Shown here in pieces: positions 1 through 48,600 of a DNA stretch of 64,000 bases. Numbering within the stretch: position 1 is the stretch's first letter; the number at the start of each line of letters is the position of its first letter. Made by a program: the position numbers and the translations under genes. The notes beneath the pieces were generated by a model that was not told where the DNA came from, searched no databases, and saw nothing but the letters and a program-made list of their open reading frames with translations. Origin of the DNA: a virus; IMG/VR virus record IMGVR_UViG_3300017730_000002, positions 45,287 through 109,286 of that record. One strand, written 5' to 3'.

Positions 1-63
1 TATATAGGATTAGTATACTCTCTATATAGAAGATAAGATACATAGTATCCCGCATTTAGATTT

Positions 64-244
64 GTTTGAATAGATTTAGGAGGGAAAACCTCGGTCATAA
101 GGTGGGCTCTTATGATTACTGTTGACTTAGGTTCGCTACCTTCGTTGTATCAGGGCTTAGATGTTTCGTCTAGGGTTTAATAATGCCTTTGGGTTCAACT
201 TTTCTTGGTTGGGCAAGTGCTTCGCACTTCTTGAGTATTCAAAC
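64..244 (+). ncRNA. Candidate structured ncRNA or leader domain
   Basis: GTTTGAATA(64-72) pairs with TATTCAAAC; encloses hairpins GAGG-GAAAA-CCTC, GTCATAAG/CTTATGAT, CTTAGAT/GTCTAGG, AAGTGC-TTC-GCACTT; no ORF. Confidence 0.45.
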
Positions 245-367
245 ATTAAATAGGTACAAGTAGGGTGTATTCCCGTAAATTAGTTCTTGCTAAGTTGACA
301 GAGAGTCAAGCCTTTTTTATTTACAAACCTATGACTAGAGAGTCGGTCATAGTATAAATGGAATAGA

Positions 368-587
368 AATTAGAAATTGTATAGGTTCTAACGTAATTTT
401 AAAAGTTAGTATAGGCATACAACATATGCTTAGAGGTCTGGATGACTGTCTGTCCTTAAATGTGAACTATACTATGCAATATTTTCTTTTCGCGATTTAT
501 TATCATTTCTAATTGATATGCTTCGGCTATTAATTAGTCTTAATCCCAAGTTGTCGGGATTTAAAATCACAGATGTTGAACTGTGAT
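368..587 (+). ncRNA. Candidate structured RNA domain
   Basis: AATTAGAAAT(368-377)/ATTTCTAATT(505-514), ATTGTATAG/CTATGCAAT, GCATA/TATGC, a C(UUCG)G hairpin near 511-535, then AATCCC/GGGATT and ATCACAG/CTGTGAT hairpins. Confidence 0.4.
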
Positions 588-599
588 ATGAATTCGTTC

Positions 600-1092
600 T
601 AATAGACAAAACACCGTGTAATCAGTACCTTTCTTGTAAGGGGAGCAGTTGCACACAAGGGTGGATAGGACAAAGACCTTACAGGGTTCTAAAACTATCA
701 GTGTTATATGTAAAGAGTACGGTCTGTAAACTGTACGTGGTTGCATATGAAATTAGGGATTTGAGCTACTATCCTAGTAAAACGTAAAATGCTAAGTCTT
801 AACTAAAAACAAAGAACTGGACAATGACGTGAAGTCTAAAGCTTATGGTGTAATTAGAAGTGCCTAATCATAGTTTAGAAATGAACTGTGTTATCCCGCA
901 AGGGGTTGTGAATTTTATGTGCCAGCATAATTGAAGCAACACTTAATTGAGATGTCATTGGCCAATGATATTGATAGAGAGTAGAATGATTACATCTTAT
1001 CCTGTTACTATGCAGTCGATCATAGTATGGCAAAGTTAATGAAGGATTTTTCTATCCGTGTGCTAACCCTTACAAATTGAGGGGTCATTAAC
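600..1092 (+). ncRNA. Candidate large multi-domain structured ncRNA (about 500 nt)
   Basis: Nested long-range helices 663-670/995-1002, 695-706/966-977, 818-830/952-964; local stems 717-736, 835-879, CCC-GCAA-GGG 895-904, 1006-1027, 1035-1092; G-U pairs favour + strand; ends at a terminator. Confidence 0.65.
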
Positions 1093-1097
1093 ATTTT

Positions 1098-1124
1098 GAA
1101 CCGAGTAGTGCTAGGTTCTTTTTT
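1098..1124 (+). terminator. Intrinsic terminator
   Basis: GAACC...GGTTC stem followed by T6. Confidence 0.6.
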
Positions 1125-1145
1125 ATTCACTTAAAACATTTTGAA

Positions 1146-1409
1146 ATGGAGACATTTGTATCTTACAAAAACAAAGTAGTTAATAGACGTAATGATGATC
1201 TCGCTGAGAGTAATTTAGTCTATCCTATTGGTAAAGGGTATCATCAAGTAGCGCAACTTGATAAATCCTGGGTATTAAAGTATTTGCGTTTGAAATTAGG
1301 TCGTGGAGTTAAAGATATTCATAACAAGTATGTAGTTCGTATTAAGAATGATATGCTTGTATATAACTGTGACGGCAAGTATTGGTTAATTAAAAAAAAT
1401 AATGACTAA
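1146..1409 (+). CDS. Hypothetical protein
   Basis: 87-aa ORF with A-rich upstream region; overlaps next gene. Confidence 0.7.
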   Translation: METFVSYKNKVVNRRNDDLAESNLVYPIGKGYHQVAQLDKSWVLKYLRLKLGRGVKDIHNKYVVRIKNDMLVYNCDGKYWLIKKNND

Positions 1410-1632
1410 AGAAGAAGCATTAGAAAAGACTAGAAAGAAATTCACTAACCTCTTTGATGGAGATATCCTTCCAAGGGTTAGTGTCGGTAAGATTATATCT
1501 TACTATGAATCACTTATTGCAGGTAACAAACCTATAGTTACTGATAGAGATTGTAATATTACAAGAGCATTCAATGAAGCATCGAATTATGATATGATGG
1601 ATGATCTTGATGAATATTATGATGGTATTTAA
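1402..1632 (+). CDS. Hypothetical protein
   Basis: 76-aa ORF overlapping the upstream gene, acidic C-terminus. Confidence 0.7.
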   Translation: MTKEEALEKTRKKFTNLFDGDILPRVSVGKIISYYESLIAGNKPIVTDRDCNITRAFNEASNYDMMDDLDEYYDGI

Positions 1633-1780
1633 CCTGACACAGCGGGTTAATAGAGGTTGTACGGTCCAAATTTACTCTATAAAATCTTATGGGACCTATG
1701 CTGGTAACAGTTCCAGACACGGAGATGAGATGAAACCTTAGACACTTAATTAATGTCTGTATGGGATTAAGCCGTGAAAG
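1629..1780 (+). ncRNA. Candidate compact pseudoknotted RNA (riboswitch- or ribozyme-like)
   Basis: Stems 1629-1650, 1650-1680, 1683-1690/1761-1768, GCTG-GTAA-CAGT, TAGACA/TGTCTG; potential pseudoknots GGTCC(1663-67)/GGACC(1692-96) and CACGG(1718-22)/CCGTG(1772-76). Confidence 0.45.
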
Positions 1781-1783
1781 AAT

Positions 1784-1816
1784 GAGGGTAGACTGTGAAA
1801 AAAACTACCCTCTTTT
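1784..1816 (+). terminator. Intrinsic terminator or attenuator
   Basis: GAGGGTAG/CTACCCTC perfect 8-bp stem plus T5. Confidence 0.7.
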
Positions 1817-1843
1817 TATTTATTTACTTAAAAACAAATTATC

Positions 1844-2257
1844 GTGAAATTATTTGATAAAAGAATTAACTTAGATGTAAAAACAGAAAATTTAATTGGT
1901 CTTGCCATAGGTATAGACTCGTGGGGTAAAGTAGATGTAAGAACTAGACAGTATCAACTGTTAATCTTATGTTTTGTAATAGAATTACAAACAAGAACTA
2001 CTATTAAAGAAAAAATAGTAAAGAAAAATCTATACAAGAAGAAAAGGAGAACAACTCGTACAGCTAAATTTATAGCATTTATGTGTGGATTATGTATGCT
2101 TGCATCTTGTTTGGCTATATATGAAGCTCTTAATGCTACTACAGGTGCTACTGCATATTCTTTTACATTAGTATCAGCAGTATTTTTAGCTTTATTTGTA
2201 GTGATAGGCATAAGTTATCTCATTATGGATAATAAAGAAAAATACTATGTTGAGTAA
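1844..2257 (+). CDS. Membrane protein, unknown function
   Basis: GTG start; two C-terminal hydrophobic helices after a basic patch. Confidence 0.7.
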   Translation: MKLFDKRINLDVKTENLIGLAIGIDSWGKVDVRTRQYQLLILCFVIELQTRTTIKEKIVKKNLYKKKRRTTRTAKFIAFMCGLCMLASCLAIYEALNATTGATAYSFTLVSAVFLALFVVIGISYLIMDNKEKYYVE

Positions 2258-2783: not shown

Positions 2784-2950
2784 AAAAAACAATTACATTA
2801 TTAGAACTTATAAAAATTGTATTACCAGTTGTTACTGTTGTTACATTAGTATTAATTATGTCCAGTTGTGGAACGGGACAAGTAAGCTGTGATGCTTATG
2901 GTCAAAATGATATAGAATATGGGGACATATCAGAAGATGAAGCAAGCTGA
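2780..2950 (+). CDS. Small lipoprotein (56 aa, not in ORF track)
   Basis: MKK + hydrophobic stretch + lipobox-like IMSSC; ATGA overlap with upstream stop. Confidence 0.65.
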   Translation: MKKTITLLELIKIVLPVVTVVTLVLIMSSCGTGQVSCDAYGQNDIEYGDISEDEAS

Positions 2951-3131
2951 AGCAGAGTACAAAGAGTTAGAGAATGATATCAGTACTGATGAGAAATCAA
3001 AAATGTACTGGAGTTCTAGAGAAAAGTATCGTTCATTAAAGTATGAATATACTATTCAAAGCTCTGTGCTTATATTAGTAGTGTTTGCTGCAGTAGCAGT
3101 AATTGCAAGTATTTTATTCGGAGGTGTGTAA
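2919..3131 (+). CDS. Small protein with C-terminal transmembrane helix
   Basis: Coiled-coil-like N-terminus and VLILVVFAAVAVIASILFGGV tail. Confidence 0.65.
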   Translation: MGTYQKMKQAEAEYKELENDISTDEKSKMYWSSREKYRSLKYEYTIQSSVLILVVFAAVAVIASILFGGV

Positions 3132-3157
3132 TGCACCTCCACAAATTATGATTAGAA

Positions 3158-3754
3158 ATGGCATATAAAAAAGAAAAAAGAGGTGCTTCATTAGTAGTGA
3201 ATCACTTTGATAATCAGTTAAATATTGTAGGTAACTACTTTAATAAGTGGGTACATCACGAGATTAACCTTGATGAAAAAAAGACTAAAATAGTAACAGG
3301 AACTCAAAAATATCAATATTTAGATAAACCAGTAGTCTGGAGAGACAAATGGTTAAAGAGTAAATTCATTAACTGTAAGCAACAGATTGACAACCAATTA
3401 TGGTTTGTTGATTTTAATGCTTATGGATATCAAGTAAGCTTTACAGAAGAATTTGATGGCATTCATATTGGTGATGATTATTGGAATATTAAGAAATGTC
3501 AATTTCTTGGTAAAATAGTCAGTAGACTTAATCAGTATCTAAAACAAGAGAAAGACAATGCTATTGTTTTACATCCAGATGCAAAAGAAACAAGGTGTAT
3601 GATTAAGCCTGAAGTATTGGTCTCTTGTATTGAGTCAGTTAATAAGGATTTTCCTTATACACTGAAATCAAGAAGAGAATCATATGAACATGCTGAAAAT
3701 ATATTTGAGGTAACTCAAGGTAGAGAGCCTGAGCTAGATGATTTACCGTTTTAA
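3158..3754 (+). CDS. Hypothetical protein with SSB-like C-terminal tail (DDLPF)
   Basis: 198-aa ORF ending ELDDLPF. Confidence 0.7.
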   Translation: MAYKKEKRGASLVVNHFDNQLNIVGNYFNKWVHHEINLDEKKTKIVTGTQKYQYLDKPVVWRDKWLKSKFINCKQQIDNQLWFVDFNAYGYQVSFTEEFDGIHIGDDYWNIKKCQFLGKIVSRLNQYLKQEKDNAIVLHPDAKETRCMIKPEVLVSCIESVNKDFPYTLKSRRESYEHAENIFEVTQGREPELDDLPF

Positions 3755-3806
3755 GAATTTTTTAAGTGGATAGGGTAAAGGTTGGAGATGTAATGTCTTC
3801 AGCCTT

Positions 3807-4262
3807 ATGCCTTTAAAAAACAAAATTATGCAGATAAAAAAAGTAGCTGTAAACATTACAGAAAGAGATATAACATCAATGGTTGAGACCATATGTAAAG
3901 AAACACAAAGTACACAAAAAGCAAATGACATTGCAGATCTATTTACAGAACTTTTATTAAAGAGTACTGAAGCATCTACATTATTTGTGCAAATTATGCT
4001 TGGTAATGGTTTACCACTAACATTGCGTGAAGGAGATGTAGTTAGATGTAAATGGGATAGGCTTAAAGTAGGACTAACAAATGCAGATGACACACTTGAT
4101 AGACTTCACGAAAATAATCTGATTAATGAAGATAATGAGGTTGTTTGTATGGTAAAATCATTCAGAGGTTATACAGAATATTTCCCATATACTGTGGAGT
4201 TTAAGTATGGAGATGATCTATATGCATCTTGTAGTATGGGATTTGAAGATATACTATCATAA
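3807..4262 (+). CDS. Hypothetical protein
   Basis: 151-aa ORF; true start may be the second Met. Confidence 0.7.
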   Translation: MPLKNKIMQIKKVAVNITERDITSMVETICKETQSTQKANDIADLFTELLLKSTEASTLFVQIMLGNGLPLTLREGDVVRCKWDRLKVGLTNADDTLDRLHENNLINEDNEVVCMVKSFRGYTEYFPYTVEFKYGDDLYASCSMGFEDILS

Positions 4263-4263
4263 A

Positions 4264-4543
4264 ACATTGCAAGCAGCTGTCATCGTAACTAAAATAAGGA
4301 GAGTTTAATAGTCCTTCCTTAGACACTGCTTGCATCTTATTAACCTGTAACTGACCCTTGAGTTTTAATTAACTATAGTCTGCGGTGGCTATGAGGGTCA
4401 GAACAGGTTTTAGTCATTATATTTTAGTCGAATATATGCTTGTAGCAAATAACAAAGGAAGAATTTTAACCCATTTTTCCTTTGTTAGCTATATAATGGC
4501 AATTTTTTTATTGTTGCATAGCCAACATATGAAAATTTATTGC
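4264..4543 (+). promoter_or_regulatory. Cluster of four long hairpins (possible RNA-processing sites or ncRNA)
   Basis: Stems 4268-4334, 4342-4409 (AACCTGT..CTGACCCT/AGGGTCAG..ACAGGTT), 4450-4487, 4499-4543 in an ORF-free gap. Confidence 0.55.
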
Positions 4544-4554
4544 GTAATTAGTAT

Positions 4555-4797
4555 ATGAATTATCAGTTACCTAATGGAAAAGTTATCTATATCTCTATAG
4601 AGGAGTACTTATCCTTGACTGATGAAGATATCCAGCATCTTATAGCATTAGACTACGGTGATGTAATTACTAATCCCTTCAGTGGATCAGCAGTAGACAC
4701 TAAAGGTAAAGTAGAACCAACAGAACCCAGAGAGTTTTTAGATACGGGTGATGATGGTGAAACCTTTCCAGATATAAATCTATCAGATTTATCTTAA
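4555..4797 (+). CDS. Acidic hypothetical protein
   Basis: 80-aa ORF MNYQLPNGKVIYISIEEYL... Confidence 0.75.
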   Translation: MNYQLPNGKVIYISIEEYLSLTDEDIQHLIALDYGDVITNPFSGSAVDTKGKVEPTEPREFLDTGDDGETFPDINLSDLS

Positions 4798-5962: not shown

Positions 5963-6155
5963 AAACCAAGAATTATCAGAAATAGACCAAGAGTTTTATG
6001 ATTTTACTAAAGATTTTGATTTAGAAGATTGGAGAACGGTTAGAACTGAAGATTATTGGTGGGTAGAGACTCCTATTGGTACTAAAAGACCAAGGAGTAC
6101 CTATGAAAAGCTTGATTTAATTAGGCATTACGTTAATAAAGGAGTGCCAAAATGA
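5955..6155 (+). CDS. Hypothetical protein
   Basis: 66-aa ORF overlapping its neighbours. Confidence 0.65.
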   Translation: MYRNQELSEIDQEFYDFTKDFDLEDWRTVRTEDYWWVETPIGTKRPRSTYEKLDLIRHYVNKGVPK

Positions 6156-6559
6156 AACCAAAGTTAAAAGAATGTGACGGTTGTCAAAAGATGACTGTTA
6201 TATGGAAGAATCATGAGGGTAATAGATACTGTAAATATTGCTGGAGTTGCCACAAAAGCAGTACTAACAAGCCAAAGAAACCAAACAAGTCTGTTATCCC
6301 TCGTGTTTCTGCCAAAAGAAAGAAGAAAGATGCTGAGTATCTTAAGTTAAGAGAAAGATATCTTATTGACAATTCCCTATGTAAAGTTAAAGTTCAAGGA
6401 TGCAGTAGTAATGCTACTGATGTTCATCATACATATGCAGGCAGTAACCGTGATGCTTTTTATTTGGTTCAAAGTACATGGATTCCTGTTTGCAGGAATT
6501 GTCATAACTGGATCCACGAGCATCCAGAAGAAGCAAGAATTATGAATTATTTAAAATGA
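6152..6559 (+). CDS. Zn-finger/HNH endonuclease family protein
   Basis: CxxC pairs at the N-terminus; C..C..ATDVHH...VCRNCHNWIH HNH-type motif. Confidence 0.75.
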   Translation: MKPKLKECDGCQKMTVIWKNHEGNRYCKYCWSCHKSSTNKPKKPNKSVIPRVSAKRKKKDAEYLKLRERYLIDNSLCKVKVQGCSSNATDVHHTYAGSNRDAFYLVQSTWIPVCRNCHNWIHEHPEEARIMNYLK

Positions 6560-10766: not shown

Positions 10767-10840
10767 GCACCCATAGCTCAGATGGATAGAGCAACTGCCT
10801 TCTAAGCAGTAGGTCTTAGGTTCGACTCCTAATGGGTGTA
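10767..10840 (+). tRNA. tRNA-Arg (anticodon UCU)
   Basis: Cloverleaf: GCACCCA/TGGGTGT acceptor, GCTC/GAGC D-arm, ACTGC-CTTCTAA-GCAGT anticodon arm, TTAGG-TTCGACT-CCTAA T-arm; CCA not encoded. Confidence 0.96.
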
Positions 10841-36619: not shown

Positions 36620-39600
36620 TTAAAATCCACAGAAATCATCTGTTCTATCTATTGGAGGTTTACCCTTAGGTCCAAATTCTTTTTTAACATCTTCTTCAAA
36701 TTTACTTAAGTCTCTCTGATCCATACGGAGAGTACCATCTGGATTACGTACTACTCTTCCAGATAAATATCCTGGAGGTTGATCACCAGTTGTTGTATCG
36801 GTAGTAAAATCAGTATTAAGATTTCTTCTAGTTAAAAAGCTATCTGTAAGAATTTGTAGAACTTGTTTATTAGATAAAAGATTTAATAACCACTTGGTAA
36901 ACTTCTTCCACCAGTTTAGAGCTTCACCTTTTTGTGCTACTACTTGTTCTCCTATAGCTTGAACTAAAGCTTCTTCCCCACCAAATCTTCTTATTCCTTC
37001 CTGAACAAGTTCATTGTCTCTAAAGTATGCAATGTAATGATGAGCATACTCATGAGGCAAAGTATCTTGTTTTTGGTTTGCCGCATCAATTAAAACAGTC
37101 ATAGCTTTTATATTAGCCTGACCTATAATTTTATCTTTGTAAGTTTGATTTAATAAATATAAATCACTAAATACATTAGTAGTGCTACCATAAACAAGTT
37201 TATTTGTTAAACGACTGTTTAAATCAGTTAAGTCTGCTAACTTTTGAAAAGGTGCTTCATAACCAGTAAACAAGCTCTCCTGAACTTTATCCCATTGATC
37301 TGTAGCAGTCATAGAAAGCACTCCTTCAGCTATACCATTGTTTAAGTCTTTAAATAACTTACCACTTGATTCTGCAGTTACAGCATTTAAGAACCAACCT
37401 GGAACTGGAGCCATTATATCTCCTGCTGTATTTATATCTTTATCGTCTGCAGTAAATTCATCTTTATTAGCAAGTACATATTTAACCAAGTCTTGTTTAG
37501 CTTTTAATTTTACATACTCTTCATTTTTTTTACGTTCAAGTAAGTCATTACTATTATGAAAATAGGTAGGGCTTGTTAGTCCTCGCAAACCATCAGTAAT
37601 ACCATTAGTAGCTAGGATATCTTCTGCTAAATCACCAAGACCACTTTCTATGGCAGATGATGGTGCAGGTCCGTAATAATGCTCCCAAGACAGCTCAAAC
37701 TGAGATATCCTTCCTTTAACAAGATCAGCTTTTCTTTGCTCAGGTGTTTGAAATTGTACTTTAAGTCTTTGTTTTAATAACTCCTTTTCTAAGTTTTCTA
37801 AAGCTACATAATCAATTCCTTTTTTGATTCTGTCTGTATTATTTTTAAAATCTTTTAAAGCAAGTTGTGCATCAATCCAACGATCATCAGATGATGTGAC
37901 TTCTTCACCACTATAATATGTTACATCTTTATATAACTTTTCCCCAGTAACTGGATCTTTTCCAGCACGTTCTCTTCGTTTAGAAGGTACTCTTTCATAT
38001 AACTTATCTAGTTTACCATTTATAAAGTTATATGTATATATACCTTCTTTTCCTTGTAAGTTAAAATCTCTACGAACACCAGGAAATGTTTTAGTAATGT
38101 ATGGACTCATACTTTGACCAATATCAAAATAATTCTGAGCAGTTACAAAAAGTTCAAATAAATCCTTTTTAGTTTTTGTACCATTATCAAATCCTGAAAT
38201 AGTATCTTTAATCTTTTTAATTTCTAGATCTGCTAAATACTCAAGATCTTTATCGGCTTGTTCAGCTATTTCAATGTCTTTAATGTATTGAGGATTATTA
38301 GGATCCATACCGCTTTTTTCTCCTTCCTCAAGTCTTTTAAGTTCTTGTTGAGTTGACCAATCAAGAATTTCTTCACCGTAAGTATCATATAATAAATAAC
38401 CTAATGCATAAACATCTAAAGTAACTCTACCTCCATACTCTACGTTTATATACTTATAAGGATCACTCTTTATAGCATTTTCCATTGTAGCTAAAAAAGC
38501 TACTTTATTTTTACGGCTAAATGCATAAAATTGAGAAGCGGCTTTTTTTAAAGGTGCTGTTAATTCTGCAATAACTTTTTGCGTTGTTTCTTGAGATCTT
38601 TTCATCTCCTGATTGAACACATCTGGACTAGAATCAAATCCAATGGGATCATTTGTAAAATTCAGCTTTATGTTAGGATACTTTTCTCTTAATACAGCTT
38701 CAATTTTCTTAGATAACTCTTCACTAAATTTAGTATCAAATCCAGTGGTGTCAGGACCTAAAATTATTTCAGGGTTTCTACTCACAAAACTTTCAAAACC
38801 TTTTAAGTCAGCTTCATTACCTAGTATATGTATTTGATCTATATCATATACCACATAAATATCTGTAGGAGTTGGATCCATTGTATTTTTTATAATAGAA
38901 GAATCCTTATTAGTTTCTTTATCTTCTTTTATAATAGCAGCAAATGACTTATCTCTTCTAGTTTGTTCTTTTTGCGTATAAGTACCAGGATTTTTCATAT
39001 CCAAAATAACTTTAACTAAATTTCCATCAAATGCAGAAAAACCTTCTTCTCTTGTTTTTTTTATAAACTCAGAAGCTTCTTTAAATGTTAAGTTCTTTCT
39101 TATTCTTTCATCAGATTGAAAAGCATCTCCAGTTTGTTTAGGTTTTAAATAGACAGCATATTTAATCTTGTTATCATAAAATTCATTTGCTTTTGCAAGT
39201 CTACCTTTTTTAAATGCATATAATGTAAAAGAACCACCGTCATCATCCATTACATTTCGAGGCTTTTCAAAAAATTCCTCTTGCTGTTCTAAAGTTGATT
39301 TATCATATAAAGTCTTTAATATACCATTAGCATCAATAGTATCTTGTTCTATGTATGTACTAAAAGGGTCCGCTGTTAAATATTCTAAAGCTGTTGAAGG
39401 GTTATCTGCAAAAAAGAACCCTTCTTGTGCAGATGAAGATCTAGTATAAGATCCAAGTTTTTCTTTTGAAAATGGTTTAAAATTTTCATCAGTACCATGA
39501 TATAAAATATCTTTTACTTGACTATTTGGGAATATAGATTGTATGTATTCAGCATATTGTTCTTTTGTACCAATAGCAGCAAGCTCAGGATTTTCAGAAA

Positions 39601-42600
39601 ACAGCACATCTATTTCAGGATTAACTTGATCAGTAACCATTAGCTTACTAAACTCGTCATTGAAGATAATGTTAGATGGTATAGGTCCTGCAGATGCAAA
39701 CATCTCTGCCATCTCTAAAGGACTATATCCATTTAGATTTCTACCTTGTGTTGTGTATAAAACATATGCATTTCTACTAGGATTTTTTGTATAGTAGTCA
39801 TACATATTTTTTATTTGATTTATAATCTCATCTTTAGGAACCTGTCTAGCAGGATCATCCATAGGAAGTTGCCAATCAGTTACGGTTTGTATTGCATAAG
39901 ATGAACCTTCCGTACCTGTTTGAAATCCTCTAGGTTGGCCTACTATAACTCTAAGACCCTTACCTTCAATCTTTTGTTTTTTATATGCTCTAGAATCATT
40001 AGCATATAGAATACCAGCTGTACCTCCACCGTGGAATCCATCTTGATTAGATCCAAATACAGTATCTTCATTACCTTTTAGGTTTTTAATATCAACAAGA
40101 CCTGTATAAGTTTTAACCTTAGCAGGCGGTTGAGTAGATTTATCTATGTTTCCACTTTTTACAGCATTATGTCTAAGTGTAATACTAAATCTTTTAGACT
40201 TATTTCCTTCAGCATCTATACCATGTTTATAATTGATTTGCCCATCTTTACCCATTATTAAACCTAGGCCAGATTTCATAGATATTTTATATTCTTTTTT
40301 ACCCTTTAGAATCATAGTTCTTTCATCACCAAAACTTATAGTTACTACAGAAGGATTTAACTTACCTTTATTATTTAATATAGGCTCGTTGTCTGTATGG
40401 AATCCTATTTTTTGACTACCATCCTTATATTCATTTATAAGAACCATATCAAAGTATCCATCCTCAAAACCTAAATCTCTAGTTATTTTAGAGACCAACC
40501 TTTGAAGTTCAACACTTCCTGTATTAGCAGGCCTAGTTGTCCCTGAATAAGAATAACTTTCATCAGAAAAATACATACTGCGTCTACCCCTACCAAATTT
40601 ATCAGAAGACTTATGCTCAGATTCATAAGTTTGATCATACAATGTTTCTATAAAATCAAAAACTTTTTTAGACTCTTCGTTTGTAAAAACTTGTTTAGTA
40701 AAAACTTCGGCATCTTCTACATTAACACTTTTTAAACCCTTGGTATTTACTAAACCATTAGTAAGTAAAGTTGCAATGTCTAAATCACTACTTTGATCTG
40801 TTGGTTGAACAGGAGCTATAGGAGCACCATATTCTTTAGGATCTACCACTAAGTCTATAAACTTATCGGTTGACATTTTACCAAATTTTAAAAGCTTCTT
40901 AAATACAAATTCAAAAGTAGCATCATTGCTTTGAGCATCTGTGAAATTCTGACCAGCTACATTCATTATATTTACAAAGTTCTCATAAGGAAGAACATCA
41001 ATCATTGAATCTCTATTATATCCACCTGTACCATTTTGATATATAGATATCAAAGGTAACCTCGCAAATAATCTAGACAATCTTAAGTTCTCAGCTCTAT
41101 CAGCTACTTTCTTTACAGCAGGGTCTGCAAGATCTTTTAAGTTTTGGTAATAGATATCGCCAAGACCTTCTGTCTTTTTTACTTGAGATATGTTTCGTAA
41201 TGATAAAACTTTTATACCAACATTATCACCAAACTGTTTAGGAATATAAAGCTGCTCAAGTATAGGATACTTTTGCTTTAAATCTGCATTTCTGTCTATA
41301 CTGTCAATTACAGTTTGTGAATAAGAATAAGCTCCTGTTCCCATAATTACAGATCTATTATAAGAATCCAGAAGCGCTTCTTTATTCAAGAAGTATTCAT
41401 AGGCTTGTTTTGTAGCATTCTCTTCAGTAAAATTAAACTGAGTTTTTAAAGTATTCTTAACAGCAATAAATTCTTTGTCACTAGATATATTTTCTAGTGG
41501 TATTCTAGATCTTAAATACTCTCTTGCTATTACATACTTTTTATACTGTATAACATTATCAAATATATCTTTATTAAAAGTTCTTAGACCTTCTTTAGGA
41601 TATGTTATAGAATTTTTTAGATAAGCTTTGTTAAAAAAGTCTCTTTCTATTTTAGCATTATCTACATATATAACATCTGACTGTTCTGTCATATTAGCCA
41701 TTGCACCTCTTTCTACACCTTCTCTGTTTATAATCTTACGGCCCATGTATGTTTCAGGAGTAGATGTTAGCTTACCATTAGAATCCACAAAACCTGTCTG
41801 ATAGTTTTGGAATATATAATCCATCAAACTATCTTTAAATCTTGTTATAAGTAAAGACTTCTCATCTCTGGTTGCTCTTATAAAAGGAAGTTCTCTCTTA
41901 AGAAAATCATTAACTCTGTCATTATTTCTAAATTGAAACACAGGAGTTACAATATCTTTAATAAGATCACCTATCCTGAAGCTACTTAATATAGATTCTT
42001 CTCTTAGTTTTCTTACAAGCTGTTGATCCACCTTTGTTAGATCAGCTAAACCTTCATAATTAGCTTCTTTAAGAATTATTTCTTGTAGTGTTCTTGATGT
42101 AGTTGTATCAGGATTAGACTGAAGCTTTAAACTTGTCAAACCTTTTAACTGCTTTTCAATTTCTAAGAAATGAAGAAACATATTTAATCCTACGTTATTT
42201 GCTCTAGGATCATTTGAAATAGTATCTCTATTTACAGAAGCCATATCACTAGTAGTAAAGACATCCTTATCTCCCATTCTTCTACTTAAAACATCATAGA
42301 AGTTTTTATTAGTTATATACTGGTATACCGTAATATCTTGATAATCTTCTGTTGTAAACTCAAGTAAGCTACCCTTTCTATTTTGTTCAAGAGCTATTTT
42401 TTCAATAGTTCTACCTGCAGCTTCGTATTTTACAAACTGGCGCTCAACACCTTCTGTTGAATACTCGCTACCCAGCTTTCTCTGTTGAGCAGCGTATTCT
42501 ATTACATAAGGGTTAGATACAAACTGTACTGCTGACTTAATTGGAACACCAGCTTTTATTAAGTACAAAAGTATCGGAGCTACCTCTCTATTACCTTGAA

Positions 42601-45600
42601 TGTTAAACACCCAAGGATCCTTTTCAATATCTACAAATCCATTTAACAATTGATTATAAAGCTCATTAATGTTATTACCATCTTTTGCTGTAACATCCGA
42701 TATTGATATAGATCCATCAGGAAACTCATTATGTGGTAAGAATAGTCTCATATTATAATCACCATCTGTAAGTGTCCAGCCGCTTTTTATAAAATTAGGA
42801 AGACTTGTCTCTTTAATTACTTCTCTTTTGCCTGCTTTATCTACTACAGTAACGGCTTTAACATATCTCTTAGTTGCATTATCATATATTTCTGGAGAGT
42901 ATTTTTTAGGCATCTTACCTCCTTGGCTGTTTATTATAGGACTTAATGCATTTTCTATAGCTACAATACCAAGTACTCTTTTACCTATCATGTTCTCAGT
43001 ATGCTTCTGTAAATTATAGATAGGCTCGATTGTTCTTGTTGGACTTATAACCTTTGTCTCTTTGCCGTTTTTATCTACTTTAATTTTGACACCTTGACTT
43101 CTGTTAGCGTATCTATCATAAGTTGCTACATCATCTCCAATTTCATCAGCTATCTCTTCTTTTAATAAATAAGTAGCATTAGGTTTTACTAAGTTAGCAT
43201 AGTTAGATTTTAGACTAAGTATCTCAGCCATGTTAAACATTATATCATTTTGTAAAGCAAGCTTCTTAGTATTAAATATCTTTTTCTGAGTAGCTTCAGT
43301 AGACATGTTTGCCATCTCAATAGTCTTTTCTACAGAAGAATTATATTCAGTCAAAGACCCATCAGAATTTATGTTAGGAAAAAATATATTAAGCTTATCA
43401 ATATCAAAGTCAGATCCTGATTTAGCAACTATCTCTGTTGGAAGTATTATAATGTTACCCGCACTTGCTGGAAGAAATTCATGAACCTCACCAAATTCCA
43501 TATAGTTAATACCTCCAACAGGAATACGTGTACCTACTATGGTAACCTTTTTTCTATTTTCACCATTATTAGCATCTAACCACTTTTCGTCCTTTATAAG
43601 CTTATTTAAATTAGCTAAACTAGCCTCTTCATCTAAAACTCTAGTTGTATTTTCTACACCAGAATCATCTATATATGTTTCTTCTCTATATACAGCAACG
43701 TCATCAAGTCTTAAAAGATTTTTAAAACTACCTTGCATCGCAATAGCTACTTTCATACCTGCAGTACTACCATCTTCTGGTTTAGTTCTGTAAAAAGGTA
43801 AATCGTTTGTACCTCGATATTTTTGAATGTCTGCTGTACTTGCTGTTTTGTACTCAGCTTGATTCCACATACCGTTGGTCAAAGCACTAGAAACTTGAAC
43901 TAAAGACTCACCATTAATTCTTTGATTAATAATTCTTTTTTGAATTAGATTAATTATCATTGACTCAATATCACCAGCTTTAAAGTGATATGATAAATCA
44001 GTTTCTAAAGTTCCATTTACATTCTTTCCTACAAATTCTATTTGATGTTCAGGGACATTTCTTCTGCCTAATTCTCTTTGAACTAAGCTTAAGAAGTTAT
44101 TAATATTACCTATATACTTATCGCCTTCTTTTCTATATCCTATTTCAGACAAAAGCTCTTCTTCTAAAATCTTTTCATAATCACTTATCAATTTAGCGTA
44201 TCTTTCTGCAGCATCCTTAGCATCAGGATCTGTAATAATACCTCTATTATAGAGATCTTTTAAGATCATTTTTCTAAACTGAGTAGAAAATATAGTTTGT
44301 TTTTTAAACTTCTTTGGAACGCCTGTTACATTTTTAAGATACTCTACGTAGATAGTATTCATAGTAAAGTCAATATCACCCTTTAGTGTATCTTGCTCTT
44401 TATTCTCAGCATCAAAAATTATATCAGCGCCTTCTGGATTAGATGCTATATGTGAAACTTTAGAACCTGTCTTAAATAAAGAATAGTGAATACTTTTATC
44501 CATCATTTGTTCATGAAGACTTTCTAATTCACCAGTCATTACCCCAGGTATCAATGGCATAAGTGAAAATTTATGCATTGAATTAACAGGTAACTTAGCT
44601 TGTTTTATACTACCTGAATAGAATAACTTATATGGCGGAAAGAATTCAGTAACTTCATTTATACCCACATATTCTCCTCTAGAAATTTTTTGAAACAAAG
44701 CTTCTTGCTCATAGCTCCAATCATTTTCTAAAAATCTTAAAGATCTGTATGCATCAAAAGTAATATAACCTTGGCCATCAGCCTCTTCCATTCCTTTATA
44801 AACACTGAGATCTCTCTTTACAAGTTCATCTACTCTAGCTTTATCAAAGTTTTTACTATAGAATTCTCTGAGACCCTTTTCTATCTGATCTAAATATTCA
44901 CTGTCTCTTTCAATGTCTTTCATAATAGCAGTATTTAAACTACCATCATACCTAAGAGTCTTCTTACCATTTTGCTCTGCATAAGAAGTCTTTTTTAAAT
45001 GACCATTAACGAATGTCTGAGCTGCTTTATCTACTCTAAAAGTTTTACCACCAGACTTAGTACCAGGAGATCTTTTTGAAAGCTCTTCTTTCTCATGATT
45101 GTATTGTGATAAATCACCTTCAAGTAAATTTGCAGTTTCAAAATTATGAATCCATGAATTATACACATAAGCCGCAGCTAATAATTTCTGTTGTCCAAGT
45201 GGATCTTCAGTAATTTTATTAACCTCTTCTAATAAGTTCTTACTTAAATAGTCATTTTCTGCAATTTTTAACCGAACCTCAGTTGCTAACTTATTAAAAT
45301 ACTCATTTATTTCACCTTTTATCTTAGCTTGTAATGTGATGTTTTCATTTTCTAAATAAGATTCTAAATCAAAAAACTTACCTTCATTTTTATCAATGAT
45401 GTCATATATTTCTTGCTTAGTATCATCAGTTAATACGTCATCAAATATTGTAAATGACTCACCTGCCATTCTACCATTAGTAAGTTTATTATTAAATCCT
45501 ACATAGTTTTTAAACTCTGGGTTACTCTTAAACTTATGGATCCTGTTAGCTTCAGAAGCTAAGTAGCCCAATATAAACTCATTGTTTATTAACTCTTGAG

Positions 45601-48600
45601 TACCTCGATAATCACTAAACTTGTCTATATCAATGTATAAATTAGAGTTCTTTTTATTAAGATCAAATCCTAACTTACTTTTAATAGACCCTGTAAACTT
45701 TAAACCAAATGCAGACTTCTTAGATGCAGCTCTAATAAACTCTTGTGTTCCACCTAGCAGCATCATGTGAAGCTCTTGTGAGAACTTAGATCCTTCATCT
45801 AAGTCAGCGGTATTAGTACCTCCACCTGTTTCTTTAGTAGTACCAGAATCTAAGAATAATTCAAGATTAGCATTTTGTATACGCTTGCCGCTTGTTGCAG
45901 TAGAGTTTAAAGAATACATACTTCTTAAAAGTACTGACTTAGATGTAAAAGGATTTATGTCAGGACTAAGATAATTCATTGGATTATTTTCACTATCTAT
46001 AAGATTTTGAAAATCTTCTGCATCATTTATTTTGGATGTTCTTGTAGATACTGTATTATTTTCTATATACTCATATACTATATTTCCTTCTGCATTCTGT
46101 ACACCAAATATATTAGCCGCTTCTCCAAATCTTCCTTGTAAACGTGCTATTCTATCTATCTGAGTTTTTTGAGACGTAGCAGATGTAGACGTAATGCTTT
46201 TATCTAAAGGTCTTTGAAGTGTCTTAATGGGATCCTGCAGTAAGTCAGATAATCTATCAGTTTGTGTTTTACTTAAAGGCGCATCCTGAGTGCTTACTTT
46301 ATCATATACATTTTTAAGATTACCATAGATATATTCTAAACCATAAAATCTTTGACCCTCTGATGAAGTTAATTCGGTTCTTATGGTATCAATATTATCT
46401 ACATATAAACCAATTGCTCTAAGAAATTCTACAGACTTAGACGTATCAAACTTGCCATTTTTACCAAAGTCTTGGATAACCTTTTCTAAATTTAACTCTG
46501 TTATTTTTGAAGATGGGTTCAGTGTTGTGTATGGGTTATCCATATCACTCATGTACTGATTTCTAAACGTATTAATAACATTTCTAGCATCAGCAGATGC
46601 ATTATTTACTTTGGCTGTATCATCCTTAAATAAAGTTAGCTGTATATAAGGTACTCTTGACTTATTAAAATCCTGCCAGAAAGATGTAGTAGCTTTAAAG
46701 TCATAAATATTATTAGCTGCTATACTTGGGTTGGGAAGCTTAGTTGAAGTCAATTGTTTAAAAGGTGCATACATGTCACCTGCCTTAACCAGTTTATCAT
46801 ACATTACTTGAGGATCAGATTCACTTGCAATAGTTCTTACAACATTATTCCACGTTAACCTAAAGTCAGCAAGCTTTTTAAATCCTAAAGAGTTTAACTT
46901 AGTCTTGCCACTCTTGTCTGTGTCATGCAGACTTTTAAGCATGTATATTGTTTCCTTACCTGCAAACTCTAATAATGATTTATCTCCAACTTTTTTATCA
47001 GCAAATCTTTCACCAACTTCTTCAGCTGTATTTTCATCCTTAGTAAGTTCATCTTCTATATATGTATCTGCTAGAATCTTATATGTACTGTTTTTCAAAT
47101 GGAAACCTACCGTACCATCTGTTGCTGTGCCATAGTTTTCTACAGCAGCTGTAAGTACTCTTATGTTTTCATCAAGCTGATCTACTACAAATTCATTCTC
47201 CTCGGCAACTTCTACTCTTTGTGTTTTAAATTCGTTTAACTTTTCCTCAAGTCTCTCTTTTATTACATCATATAAAATAGACTTTTTACCAGGATCCAAA
47301 ACTAACTTAAGAGCCATGCCTTTATTATTTTCAGAGTCAGTGCTTCTTAAATCCATAGTAACTTCATCAACTATATCAGATATAATTGAATCCATACTAT
47401 CTTTAACTAAAAGAGATTCGCTTCTTGTTAAAGCTTGTTTATCGGTACCAGGTTCTGTAATACCTATGTTTCTTTCTAACTCATCAAACTGTACATTCTC
47501 AATGGTAGGTGTATATTTATTGAGACCTTTGTTATAATAAAGAGCTTCAAACATTTCTTGAACCATTTGAATTTCCATTACATTAGATGCATATCCTACA
47601 CCAAACAACTTTTTTAAGAAATTTAATATTCTTCTAAAGAAAGTATTTCTTTTAGGAGATCCTTTTTTAGCTTTTGGATTTTTAGCATAAGTTCTAAACT
47701 CTTCTGCAAGAATTTCTTCTATTTCCTGAACACTATAATTTTTACCACCTTTTAAAGATTTTTTAACTTCTCTATATAGAGCTCTTTTTTCTTTAGGTGA
47801 TAAAAACAATTGTGTAAATCCATGCCATGCTTCGTGATATAAATCAACTGATGAACCTTTCTTAGCGATCTGTATTGTACCATACTTACCTGCAAGAATA
47901 CCGCCATATGAAATAAACTTAGCAAATGCATCTGAGTTAACTATATTAACTCCTACCTCTAAATCTAAATATTTACTAAGGTCAGATTTATTCCACCAAT
48001 CAATTGCTTTTTTATTTTGCTCAGATGTACCTTTATCTTGAGTTAATGTTCCAGATCTTTCTAAACCAAATCGTTTAGCTATACCTCTTTCATAAGGTGT
48101 ATTTGTTCCTGCTTTAGTTGTAGCATCATCTATTTGTTCTTCCTTAGATTTAGTCTGTCTATTTTTATACAGCTCTTTATAGTAAGGTACTCTACTATCT
48201 TCCTGAGCATAAAAATCAGTTTCTTGAACATTGCCAATAACTTCCCCAGTAGTACTATCCACTACAGATAAGAGTTCGGGTATAAAAATTTTAGTCTTGT
48301 TATCAATTTTTTCTTCTATTACAAATGTTATAGGCGCACCTACCATAAAGGGAATTGTGACATTTCCATATTTATATTTATCAGCAAGATAGATTTTCAT
48401 TGTTTGACCATCCACAGGTGATTGAAATAGTATATATGCATAAGGACCTTTACCACCAGGTCTTTCTCCATTTTCTACTGCAGATATAGTAGTTGTAGTT
48501 ACAGTACCAGCATTCTTTACAAAAGCTGCAAGAGCATCTTTTCTTTTTCTAATTTCAGATGGTTGCTTTTCTTTAGCATCTTCTAAAGATTTAGTTACTT

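What the first reader, a model, noticed from the sequence alone, without database searches (positions are those of the whole stretch)
600..1124. Candidate large, ornate, unannotated ncRNA (about 500 nt) at the head of the phage early region
Seen: an ORF-free stretch folds by hand into nested long-range helices (GGATAGGA 663-670/TCTTATCC 995-1002; TTCTA 687-691/TAGAA 982-986; CTATCAGTGTTA 695-706/TGATATTGATAG 966-977; TGGACAATGACGT 818-830/ATGTCATTGGCCA 952-964). It also has at least eight local hairpins, including a GCAA tetraloop (895-904), and ends at an intrinsic terminator. Segment 651-670 can alternatively pair with 1050-1063, which lies in the loop of the 3' hairpin (pseudoknot or switch). 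Many G-U pairs indicate RNA on the + strand. Known: phages carry large ncRNAs of unknown function (ROOL, GOLLD). Inference: this is either a divergent member of such a class or a new class from crAss-like phages. I found no group I/II intron, RNase P or tmRNA signature.
Basis: partly seen in the sequence, partly recalled or inferred. Interest (0 to 1): 0.85.

Follow-up and report, generated by a model that had tools for sequence, protein, structure and literature searches.

The report
New large folded phage RNA gene
The flagged gene-free stretch is a real gene for a folded non-coding RNA of about 584 bases, from an uncatalogued family shared by several uncultured, probably marine, phages; it resembles the enigmatic GOLLD and ROOL phage RNAs in kind, and its job is unknown.

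Summary
Window 541-1124 (+) is a discrete, single-copy gene for a structured non-coding RNA of about 584 nt.

I found eight more copies: one metagenome contig and seven viral contigs, 73-99% identical. Homology starts and stops sharply at the unit's ends. On the 9-sequence alignment the consensus fold has 150 pairs in 23 helices. 98.3% of cells pair, and 57 pairs change on both sides, against 27 in shuffles and 7-10 in slid controls. Two pseudoknots and two GNRA loops are also kept. Conserved G-U pairs fix the strand as +.

There is no Rfam match, no coding potential, no conserved neighbouring gene and no shared upstream sequence. The closest relatives of this phage lack the unit, so it is an optional, mobile cassette in the early region. 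One copy follows tRNA genes in a phage contig of over 166 kb that showed no match to the one hallmark protein tested.

Function is unknown. My best guess is a stable trans-acting RNA of the GOLLD/ROOL kind. Expression could not be tested. Earlier notes of this scan (e1-5729828, e1-5976798) appear to have met the same family on other DNA.

The parts
541..1124 (+). Complete RNA gene (about 584 nt): the conserved unit of the family
   Evidence: Homology to eight other loci starts at about 541 and ends after the U-tract; the flanks are unrelated. nhmmer places a single copy in the phage's own genome at window 541-1123.
542..609 (+). 5' domain: H1 (542-547/556-561), H2 (567-572/581-586), pseudoknot PK1 (H1 loop 551-555 with 605-609), and an optional GAA-UUCG-UUC hairpin at 590-599
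   Evidence: H1 and H2 each have 3 covarying pairs. PK1 pairs in 100% of cells with 3 covarying pairs, and slid controls give 0. The optional hairpin is present only here and in L049; three other members carry a different hairpin at this spot.
612..699 (+). Domain II: H3 (612-615/660-663), H4 (616-632/639-654, with an invariant core at about 624-650), H5 (664-668/695-699), H6 (675-679/684-688)
Evidence: 97.8-100% of cells pair, and each helix has 2-3 covarying pairs.
704..778 (+). Domain III: H7 (704-713/741-750), H8 (717-723/730-736), H9 (752-758/772-778). Candidate kissing contact between the H6 loop (680-683) and the H8 loop (725-728)
   Evidence: for the helices. The kissing loop pairs in 97.2% of cells with one covarying pair (GC in 6, AU in 3), which is weak support.
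762..845 (+). Pseudoknot PK2: H9 loop 762-767 pairs with 840-845
   Evidence: 98.1% of cells pair, 2 pairs covary, slid controls give 0.
790..1032 (+). Large 3' domain closed by H10 (790-794/1028-1032). It holds:
- a variable hairpin at 826-836
- H12 (847-856/987-996)
- H13 (861-865/978-983)
- H14 (869-877/882-890, GNRA loop)
- H15 (895-897/902-904, GNRA loop)
- H16 (905-909/936-940)
- H17 (915-920/925-930)
- H18 (952-959/964-971, GGCC loop)
- H19 (1006-1012/1021-1027)
   Evidence: H12, H14, H16, H18 and H19 have 4-7 covarying pairs each. H10, H13 and H15 never vary, so they are untested. The variable hairpin keeps a stem despite unrelated sequences. The H18 loop always holds a GC-only palindrome: GGCC in 8 members, GCGC in L058.
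1035..1092 (+). 3' three-way element: H20 (1035-1042/1085-1092), H21 (1044-1046/1055-1057), H22 (1067-1072/1078-1083). It includes the most conserved stretch of the family, about 1029-1066
   Evidence: H22 has 5 of 6 pairs covarying. The stretch is near-invariant across all nine members.
1098..1124 (+). Intrinsic terminator: stem-loop 1098-1118 followed by U6 at 1119-1124
   Evidence: The hairpin is almost invariant in all nine members, the closing pair covaries (GC, AU, CG, GU), and a U-rich tract always follows. The simple scan did not list it, probably because the outer 5-bp stem read alone encloses an 11-nt loop, beyond that scan's 3-8 limit.
1146..1409 (+). Neighbouring 87-aa ORF. It is a separate cassette, not part of the RNA unit
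   Evidence: Relatives L050 and L051 carry the ORF, with homology starting at window 1131 and unrelated DNA upstream. L053 has it in another order.

Best explanation
Window 541-1124 (+) is a stand-alone gene for a highly structured non-coding RNA of about 584 nt. It belongs to an uncatalogued family carried as an optional, horizontally exchanged cassette by uncultured, probably marine, phages.

Shown:
- The unit is discrete, with sharp ends and its own conserved intrinsic terminator.
- It does not code for protein.
- Selection acts on RNA base pairing on the + strand: 23 helices, two pseudoknots and two GNRA loops.
- It always lies co-oriented within arrays of small genes; in the four loci where a switch of gene direction is in view it lies 1.5-4 kb after it. 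This is the early-type region.

Inferred:
- It is made from the start of infection and accumulates as a stable, compact RNA that acts in trans. Long intergenic transcripts of the crAss-like phage phi14:2 behave this way.
- It is of the same kind as GOLLD and ROOL.
- Most likely mechanism, at about 35%: it folds through its tertiary contacts and joins with other copies through the palindromic H18 loop into an RNA-only particle or scaffold that touches the host's translation or tRNA machinery.
- Next most likely, at about 25-30%: it is a decoy or sponge for one host protein, possibly a defence protein.

The confidence given below is for the core claim (a real, trans-acting structured RNA gene of a new family), not for the mechanism.
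For: - Eight homologues, 73-99% identical over the whole unit and unrelated in both flanks.
- Consensus fold: 98.3% of 1346 cells pair. 57 pairs change on both sides, against 26.9 +/- 3.3 in shuffles (0 of 500 reach it) and 7-10 with slid partners.
- Two pseudoknots: 99% paired, 5 covarying pairs, slid controls 0.
- GNRA loops are kept as GAAA or GCAA.
- Many conserved G-U pairs fix the strand.
- No coding signal, and no protein record for the longest internal ORF.
- No Rfam hit.
- No conserved adjacent protein. The nearest shared genes lie 3-5 kb downstream, at 31-73% amino-acid identity, while the RNA stays at 77-82% nucleotide identity.
- The unit is present in G044, whose giant virion protein is only 30% identical to this phage's, and in G038, which gave no match to that protein.
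- tRNA genes or tRNA-like elements lie beside the unit in L071, L075, L072 and L069. GOLLD and ROOL show the same association.
- The H18 loop is always a GC palindrome, GGCC or GCGC.
- Precedent: two long intergenic regions early in phi14:2 are transcribed above most genes and persist.
Against:
- No shared promoter: the 170 nt upstream are not conserved. The RNA may be cut out of a longer early transcript.
- There are only nine sequences in about six lineages, so some helices (H10, H13, H15) and much of the tertiary model rest on invariant columns.
- Single-sequence folding energy is only marginally better than shuffles (z = -2.2).
- Oligomerisation rests on one palindromic loop with two variants.
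- The closest relatives of this phage do without the RNA, so it is dispensable.
Confidence: 0.85

Rival explanations
1. It is a protein sponge or decoy RNA. The conserved single-stranded blocks bind and hold one host protein early in infection, for example a defence nuclease, a ribosomal protein or an RNA chaperone. No RNA-only assembly is involved.
For: - Long invariant unpaired blocks, for example about 624-650 and about 1029-1066.
- Early-region position next to host-takeover-type small genes.
- Optional, patchy distribution, as is typical of accessory and counter-defence cargo.
Against: No partner is known and no conserved neighbouring gene hints at one. At 584 nt with 23 helices it is far larger than known protein sponges need to be. 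Nothing tested here separates this reading from the self-assembly reading.
Confidence: 0.27
2. It is a cis-acting leader (riboswitch, attenuator or processing and stability element) that controls the gene downstream, the 87-aa ORF at 1146-1409.
For: It sits directly upstream of, and co-oriented with, a small ORF, and ends in a terminator only 21 nt before the start codon.
Against: - The downstream gene differs in every homologue.
- The same ORF occurs without the RNA in L050 and L051.
- The terminator hairpin and loop are invariant, and no alternative anti-terminator pairing covaries.
Confidence: 0.04
3. It is a divergent member of a catalogued RNA family: GOLLD, ROOL, HEARO, a group I or II intron, RNase P, tmRNA or 6S.
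For: Its size, its phage setting and its tRNA neighbours resemble GOLLD and ROOL.
Against: No Rfam 15 model reaches even E = 10 on this stretch or gathering score on the homologue loci. The flanks show no interrupted gene that would make it an intron.
Confidence: 0.03
4. It is a DNA-level element (replication origin, packaging site or recombination hot spot) or decayed coding sequence, and the folding is incidental.
For: It lies in a 1.5-kb ORF-free stretch next to an AT-rich conserved element (window -163 to 60). Single-sequence folding energy is only marginal.
Against: - Compensatory changes keep pairs, and G-U pairs work on one strand only. That is selection on RNA.
- There are stops in all frames in all members and no codon periodicity.
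- There is no remnant of the gene of about 600 aa that relatives carry here.
Confidence: 0.02

Closest known systems
ROOL RNA (Rfam RF03087; accession from my own knowledge)
   Same: - About 600 nt, many helices and pseudoknots, no known protein partner.
- Encoded by phages, often near tRNA genes.
- Function unknown.
- Here: 584 nt, 23 helices, 2 pseudoknots, tRNA or tRNA-like neighbours in 4 of 8 other loci.
   Different: No match to the covariance model and no recognisable shared sequence. Different hosts and habitat. The octameric nanocage of ROOL is untested here.
GOLLD RNA (Rfam RF02032; accession from my own knowledge)
   Same: A large ornate RNA of phages and prophages, often beside tRNAs, that rises during the lytic cycle. 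Some members come from marine metagenomes.
   Different: GOLLD usually exceeds 800 nt and has a conserved 3' half with a variable 5' half. This RNA is conserved along its whole length. There is no model match.
Long early non-coding transcripts of the crAss-like Cellulophaga phage phi14:2 (g004-g006 intergenic regions; bioRxiv 10.1101/2020.03.07.982082)
   Same: A long ORF-free stretch (1.7 kb there, 1.5 kb here) a few kb into the early region, co-oriented with small early genes. Their early, strong and lasting transcription is the best available model for how this RNA is expressed.
   Different: No detectable sequence or structure-model similarity. No conserved structure has been described for the phi14:2 RNAs. 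Expression of the present RNA is untested.

Membership tests
ROOL (Rfam) | Match to the family covariance model | tested here: not met
   No hit at gathering score on the window, at E <= 10 on window 1-2000, or at gathering score on the nine homologue loci.
GOLLD (Rfam) | Match to the family covariance model | tested here: not met
   Same searches.
GOLLD/ROOL kind (large ornate phage RNAs) | More than 500 nt, non-coding, with many covariation-supported helices and pseudoknots | tested here: met
   584 nt; 150 pairs in 23 helices with 57 covarying pairs; 2 pseudoknots; no coding signal.
GOLLD/ROOL kind (large ornate phage RNAs) | Phage-encoded, often beside tRNA genes | tested here: met
   All nine copies lie on viral or phage-like contigs. 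tRNA-Pro and tRNA-Ile lie directly upstream in L071. There is a borderline tRNA hit in L075. T-arm-like elements lie near the copies in L069 and L072. No tRNA lies beside the copy in this window; the nearest is at 10767.
GOLLD/ROOL kind (large ornate phage RNAs) | RNA-only homo-oligomer (nanocage) | not testable with these tools
   The only hint is that the H18 loop is always a GC palindrome, GGCC or GCGC.
phi14:2 early long non-coding RNAs | Sequence or structure homology to phi14:2 positions 2905-4601 | tested here: not met
   blastn, nhmmer and the model R1 find nothing.
phi14:2 early long non-coding RNAs | Very high early transcription that persists late in infection | not testable with these tools
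cis-regulatory leader (riboswitch or attenuator) | The same gene or gene class lies downstream across homologues | tested here: not met
   Downstream genes are unrelated. The local ORF occurs without the RNA.
Self-splicing intron (group I or II) | Model match, and an interrupted host gene whose halves join across the element | tested here: not met
   No Rfam intron hit. The flanks are unrelated intergenic DNA or whole small ORFs.
Rho-independent terminator (3' end of the unit) | Stable hairpin directly followed by a U-tract | tested here: met
   Hairpin 1098-1118 plus U6, kept in all nine members with a covarying closing pair.

The most novel reading that the evidence does not exclude
The RNA is the founding member of a further class of self-assembling, RNA-only particles like the GOLLD and ROOL nanocages. 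It would be made from the first minutes of infection by crAss-like and other phages, with copies joined through the palindromic GGCC/GCGC loop of H18, and it would be traded between unrelated phages as a ready-made cassette.
Probability: 0.2. Interest if true: 0.85.

Novelty: new variant of a known kind. Interest (0 to 1): 0.72.

Why it matters
Natural RNAs over 500 nt with an elaborate conserved fold and no known function are few: GOLLD, ROOL, OLE, HEARO and raiA. Two of them were recently shown to build cages larger than a ribosome.

This finding gives:
- a further family of that size with a covariation-backed fold;
- a link between that kind of RNA and the early, host-takeover region of crAss-like phages;
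- a sequence-defined candidate for the kind of abundant, stable early non-coding RNA seen but left unexplained in phi14:2.

The unit is short, self-contained and ends in its own terminator. It can therefore be transcribed in vitro and examined directly by native gel, cryo-EM and pull-down.

Its patchy spread across unrelated phages argues for a portable function that pays off in some hosts only.

Tried and rejected
Searches that found nothing:
- blastn of window 1-1200 and 505-1135 against GenBank phages, even at E <= 1.
- The 87-aa neighbour ORF in viral contigs.
- 37 relatives found through the helicase, searched by blastn, nhmmer and whole-record search. The stretch is absent. In the closest relatives, the two anchors that flank it here at 1339 bp apart lie only 411 bp apart.
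- The first two exact-word patterns.
- Eight of the ten loci matched by one later pattern were chance matches in coding DNA.
- Both genome-contig scans gave nothing or only chance hits of 25-32 nt, so no copy was seen in bacterial or archaeal genomes.
- Model R1 (3' domain) over 606 kb of loci, including phi14:2: only the window itself.
- Protein search with the longest internal ORF.
- Rfam on the whole early region of this phage.
- PDB sequence search with the DFDID region of the 4572-aa protein.

Readings rejected:
- Pseudogene of the gene of about 600 aa that relatives carry at this position: tblastn finds no trace.
- Alternative genetic codes: no frame opens.
- A shared promoter: none in the 170 nt upstream of the nine copies, and the sigma-70 scan shows nothing useful.
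- Other possible long-range pairings from my covariation scan (574-578/1023-1027, 616-620/1009-1013, 677-681/754-758): they clash with better-supported helices and rest on one or two lineages, so I left them out.

Full report
**Where it lies.** The window is bases 45287-109286 of a 109-kb viral record that CheckV rates 93% complete. The phage has a helicase whose relatives in GenBank are Flavobacterium, Bacteroides, Cellulophaga and other Crassvirales phages, at about 30% identity. It has giant minus-strand ORFs of 1945, 4572 and 2103 aa. One of them carries a DFDID motif, which is the catalytic motif of the phi14:2 virion RNA polymerase according to the preprint read. I therefore call it crAss-like. 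A sequence search of that region against solved structures found nothing. Genes switch direction about 3.5 kb upstream of the window. A run of small + strand ORFs follows, each ending in a GC hairpin plus a long T-tract. Then comes an ORF-free stretch of 1.5 kb, window -346 to 1145. It stays closed under TAG=Q and code 4.

**The observation.** By energy alone the case is weak. The + strand of 600-1124 folds at z = -1.62, and 8 of 100 shuffles fold as well. The minus strand is at z = -0.07. Rfam has nothing, either at gathering score or at E <= 10.

**Finding relatives.** The closest relatives do not carry the stretch. 37 loci found through the helicase, at 52-93% identity, have no similarity to window 60-1399. 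In L004 and L005 the two flanking anchors are 411 bp apart, against 1339 bp here. Other relatives carry a gene of about 600 aa at this position, and it has left no trace here.

The 87-aa ORF just downstream has four protein clusters of relatives. A metagenome scan with them gave L049, a near-identical copy of window 100-1900 that lacks 314-504. It also gave L050 and L051, where the ORF is present but homology begins only at window 1131. So the RNA and the ORF are separate cassettes.

Earlier notes of this scan shared short words with my stretch on two other genomes. I used those counts only to decide where to place exact-word patterns. Four patterns then brought in seven full-length homologues from viral contigs: L059, L058, L064, L065, L066, L067 and L068. 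Their nhmmer E-values run from 1e-152 to 1e-206.

**The unit.** In the nine-sequence alignment (A4), similarity begins within a few bases of window 541 and ends just after the T-tract at 1124. Both flanks are unrelated in every locus except L049. Each record holds one copy. No frame is open in any member, and variable sites show no codon periodicity (81, 86 and 92 per phase).

**Structure.** RNAalifold predicts 152 pairs.
- I dropped two spurious terminal pairs and counted 150 pairs in 23 helices. 98.3% of cells form standard pairs. 57 pairs change on both sides, against 26.9 +/- 3.3 in shuffles (0 of 500) and 7-10 when partners are slid by 1-3 columns. The structure was derived from this same alignment, which favours it on the share of cells paired. 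The excess of two-sided changes is too large to be explained that way.
- A scan for further covarying stacks found two pseudoknots: the H1 loop 551-555 with 605-609, and the H9 loop 762-767 with 840-845. Together they pair in 99% of cells, have 5 covarying pairs, and score 0 in slid controls.
- The loops of H6 and H8 change together (UACA with UGUA, or UGCA with UGCA). This suggests a kissing contact but rests on one covarying pair.
- Two tetraloops stay GNRA. A hairpin at 826-836 keeps a stem through unrelated sequences. An optional hairpin sits after H2 in some members.
- At least 15 pairs are mostly G-U, so only the + strand can form the fold.
- With the right ends, the single sequence folds at z = -2.20.

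Counted on the same alignment, the four long-range helices are no better than shuffles: 81.8% against 81.0% paired, and 4 against 2.9 covarying pairs. Their segments are engaged elsewhere:
- 664-668 pairs with 695-699;
- 987-996 pairs with 847-856;
- 952-971 is a local hairpin.

The proposed switch 651-670/1050-1063 is likewise indistinguishable from chance. Its invariant ACAC/GUGU part cannot be tested.

**Context.** In all other loci the RNA is co-oriented with arrays of small ORFs. In L069, L070, L072 and this genome, where a switch of gene direction is in view, it lies 1.5-4 kb past it.
- Four loci (L070, L074, L075, L076) share with this phage a block of four proteins 3-5 kb downstream, at 31-73% amino-acid identity. 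The RNA stays at 77-82% nucleotide identity.
- G044, a complete 115.6-kb record, has a giant protein only 30% identical to this phage's.
- G038, a 166-kb contig rated 59% complete, has no match to that protein. It carries the RNA directly after tRNA-Pro and tRNA-Ile.
- A borderline tRNA hit follows the RNA in L075. T-arm-like elements lie beside it in L069 and L072.
- In L076 a Hatchet ribozyme lies about 470 nt upstream. The same non-coding module of about 550 nt fills the equivalent ORF-free slot of L014 and L012.
- No protein gene is consistently adjacent.

The picture is an early region built from swappable cassettes, some of them RNA genes. The present RNA is one optional cassette that has crossed between distant phage lineages.

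**What it does.** Nothing here shows function or even expression.

The best analogy for expression is phi14:2. There, two long intergenic regions at the start of the early region are transcribed above most genes from the first time point and do not decline. The authors call them long non-coding RNAs of unknown function. Their sequence is unrelated to this RNA.

The best analogy for kind is GOLLD and ROOL: large, ornate, phage-borne, tRNA-associated RNAs, now known to form RNA-only nanocages held by kissing loops and A-minor contacts. The H18 loop here is always a GC palindrome, GGCC in eight members and GCGC in the most divergent one. That is the sort of feature that joins copies in those RNAs.

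On this basis I favour a stable, trans-acting, possibly self-associating RNA, at about 35% for the mechanism. A protein-sponge or decoy role comes close behind. A cis-regulatory leader, an intron, a known Rfam family and a DNA-level element are each contradicted by tests made here.

**Novelty.** No Rfam 15 family matches, and I found no paper describing this family, though my literature search was limited. Notes e1-5729828 and e1-5976798 indicate that this scan has met the same family on other genomes. I could not see their sequences and did not rely on their conclusions. This is a new family within a known kind of RNA.

Noticed in passing
L002:11940-15027 (window -3347 to -260): Twelve copies of a GC hairpin followed by TTTC and a long T-run, each about 20-30 nt before the next small ORF or non-coding unit. 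They read as intrinsic terminators that bound early cassettes. Weaker copies lie at window ~310, ~1117 and ~1808. Similar T-rich junctions precede the RNA homologues in L072 and L075.
   Followed up: partly
window -163 to 60 (L002:15125-15347): An AT-rich (about 25% GC) non-coding element with TATAG-type repeats. It is conserved at 70-79% in relatives that differ on both sides of it (L004, L005, L010, L011, L014, L053). It may be a promoter cluster or an origin-like element.
   Followed up: no
window 1629-1845: A non-coding element after the 76-aa ORF, conserved at 82-84% in L003, L004, L052 and L053, ending in a strong terminator. RNAalifold finds only 3 pairs with two-sided changes, so the case for a structured RNA remains weak.
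   Followed up: partly
L076:7439-7576 (-); also L014:2786-3286 and L012: A Hatchet self-cleaving ribozyme (86.7 bits, gathering score 51) lies about 470 nt upstream of the RNA homologue in L076. The same non-coding module of about 550 nt (85% identical) fills the ORF-free slot of relatives L014 and L012, which lack the RNA.
   Followed up: partly
L069 about 6150-6230; L072 about 430-520 (-); L075:1142-1212: tRNA-like elements with a canonical T-arm word lie beside the RNA homologues. ARAGORN calls none of them a tRNA. The Rfam tRNA model scores 30.4 bits in L075, just above its gathering score of 29.
   Followed up: partly
window 314-504: This 190-nt piece of the ORF-free stretch, including the T-tract after the hairpin at about 296-312, is absent from the otherwise near-identical L049. 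There the upstream module (64-313) runs almost directly into the RNA gene.
   Followed up: no
window 36620-50338 (-): A 4572-aa ORF carries a DFDID motif at residue 2310, the catalytic motif of the phi14:2 virion RNA polymerase. A sequence search of residues 1800-3000 against solved structures found nothing.
   Followed up: partly
L010:4321-6120, L014:3698-5539, L009:576-1976: Relatives carry a gene of 466-613 aa at the position of this window's ORF-free stretch (DUF7788 and DUF2828 in L009). It is absent here without a remnant.
   Followed up: partly
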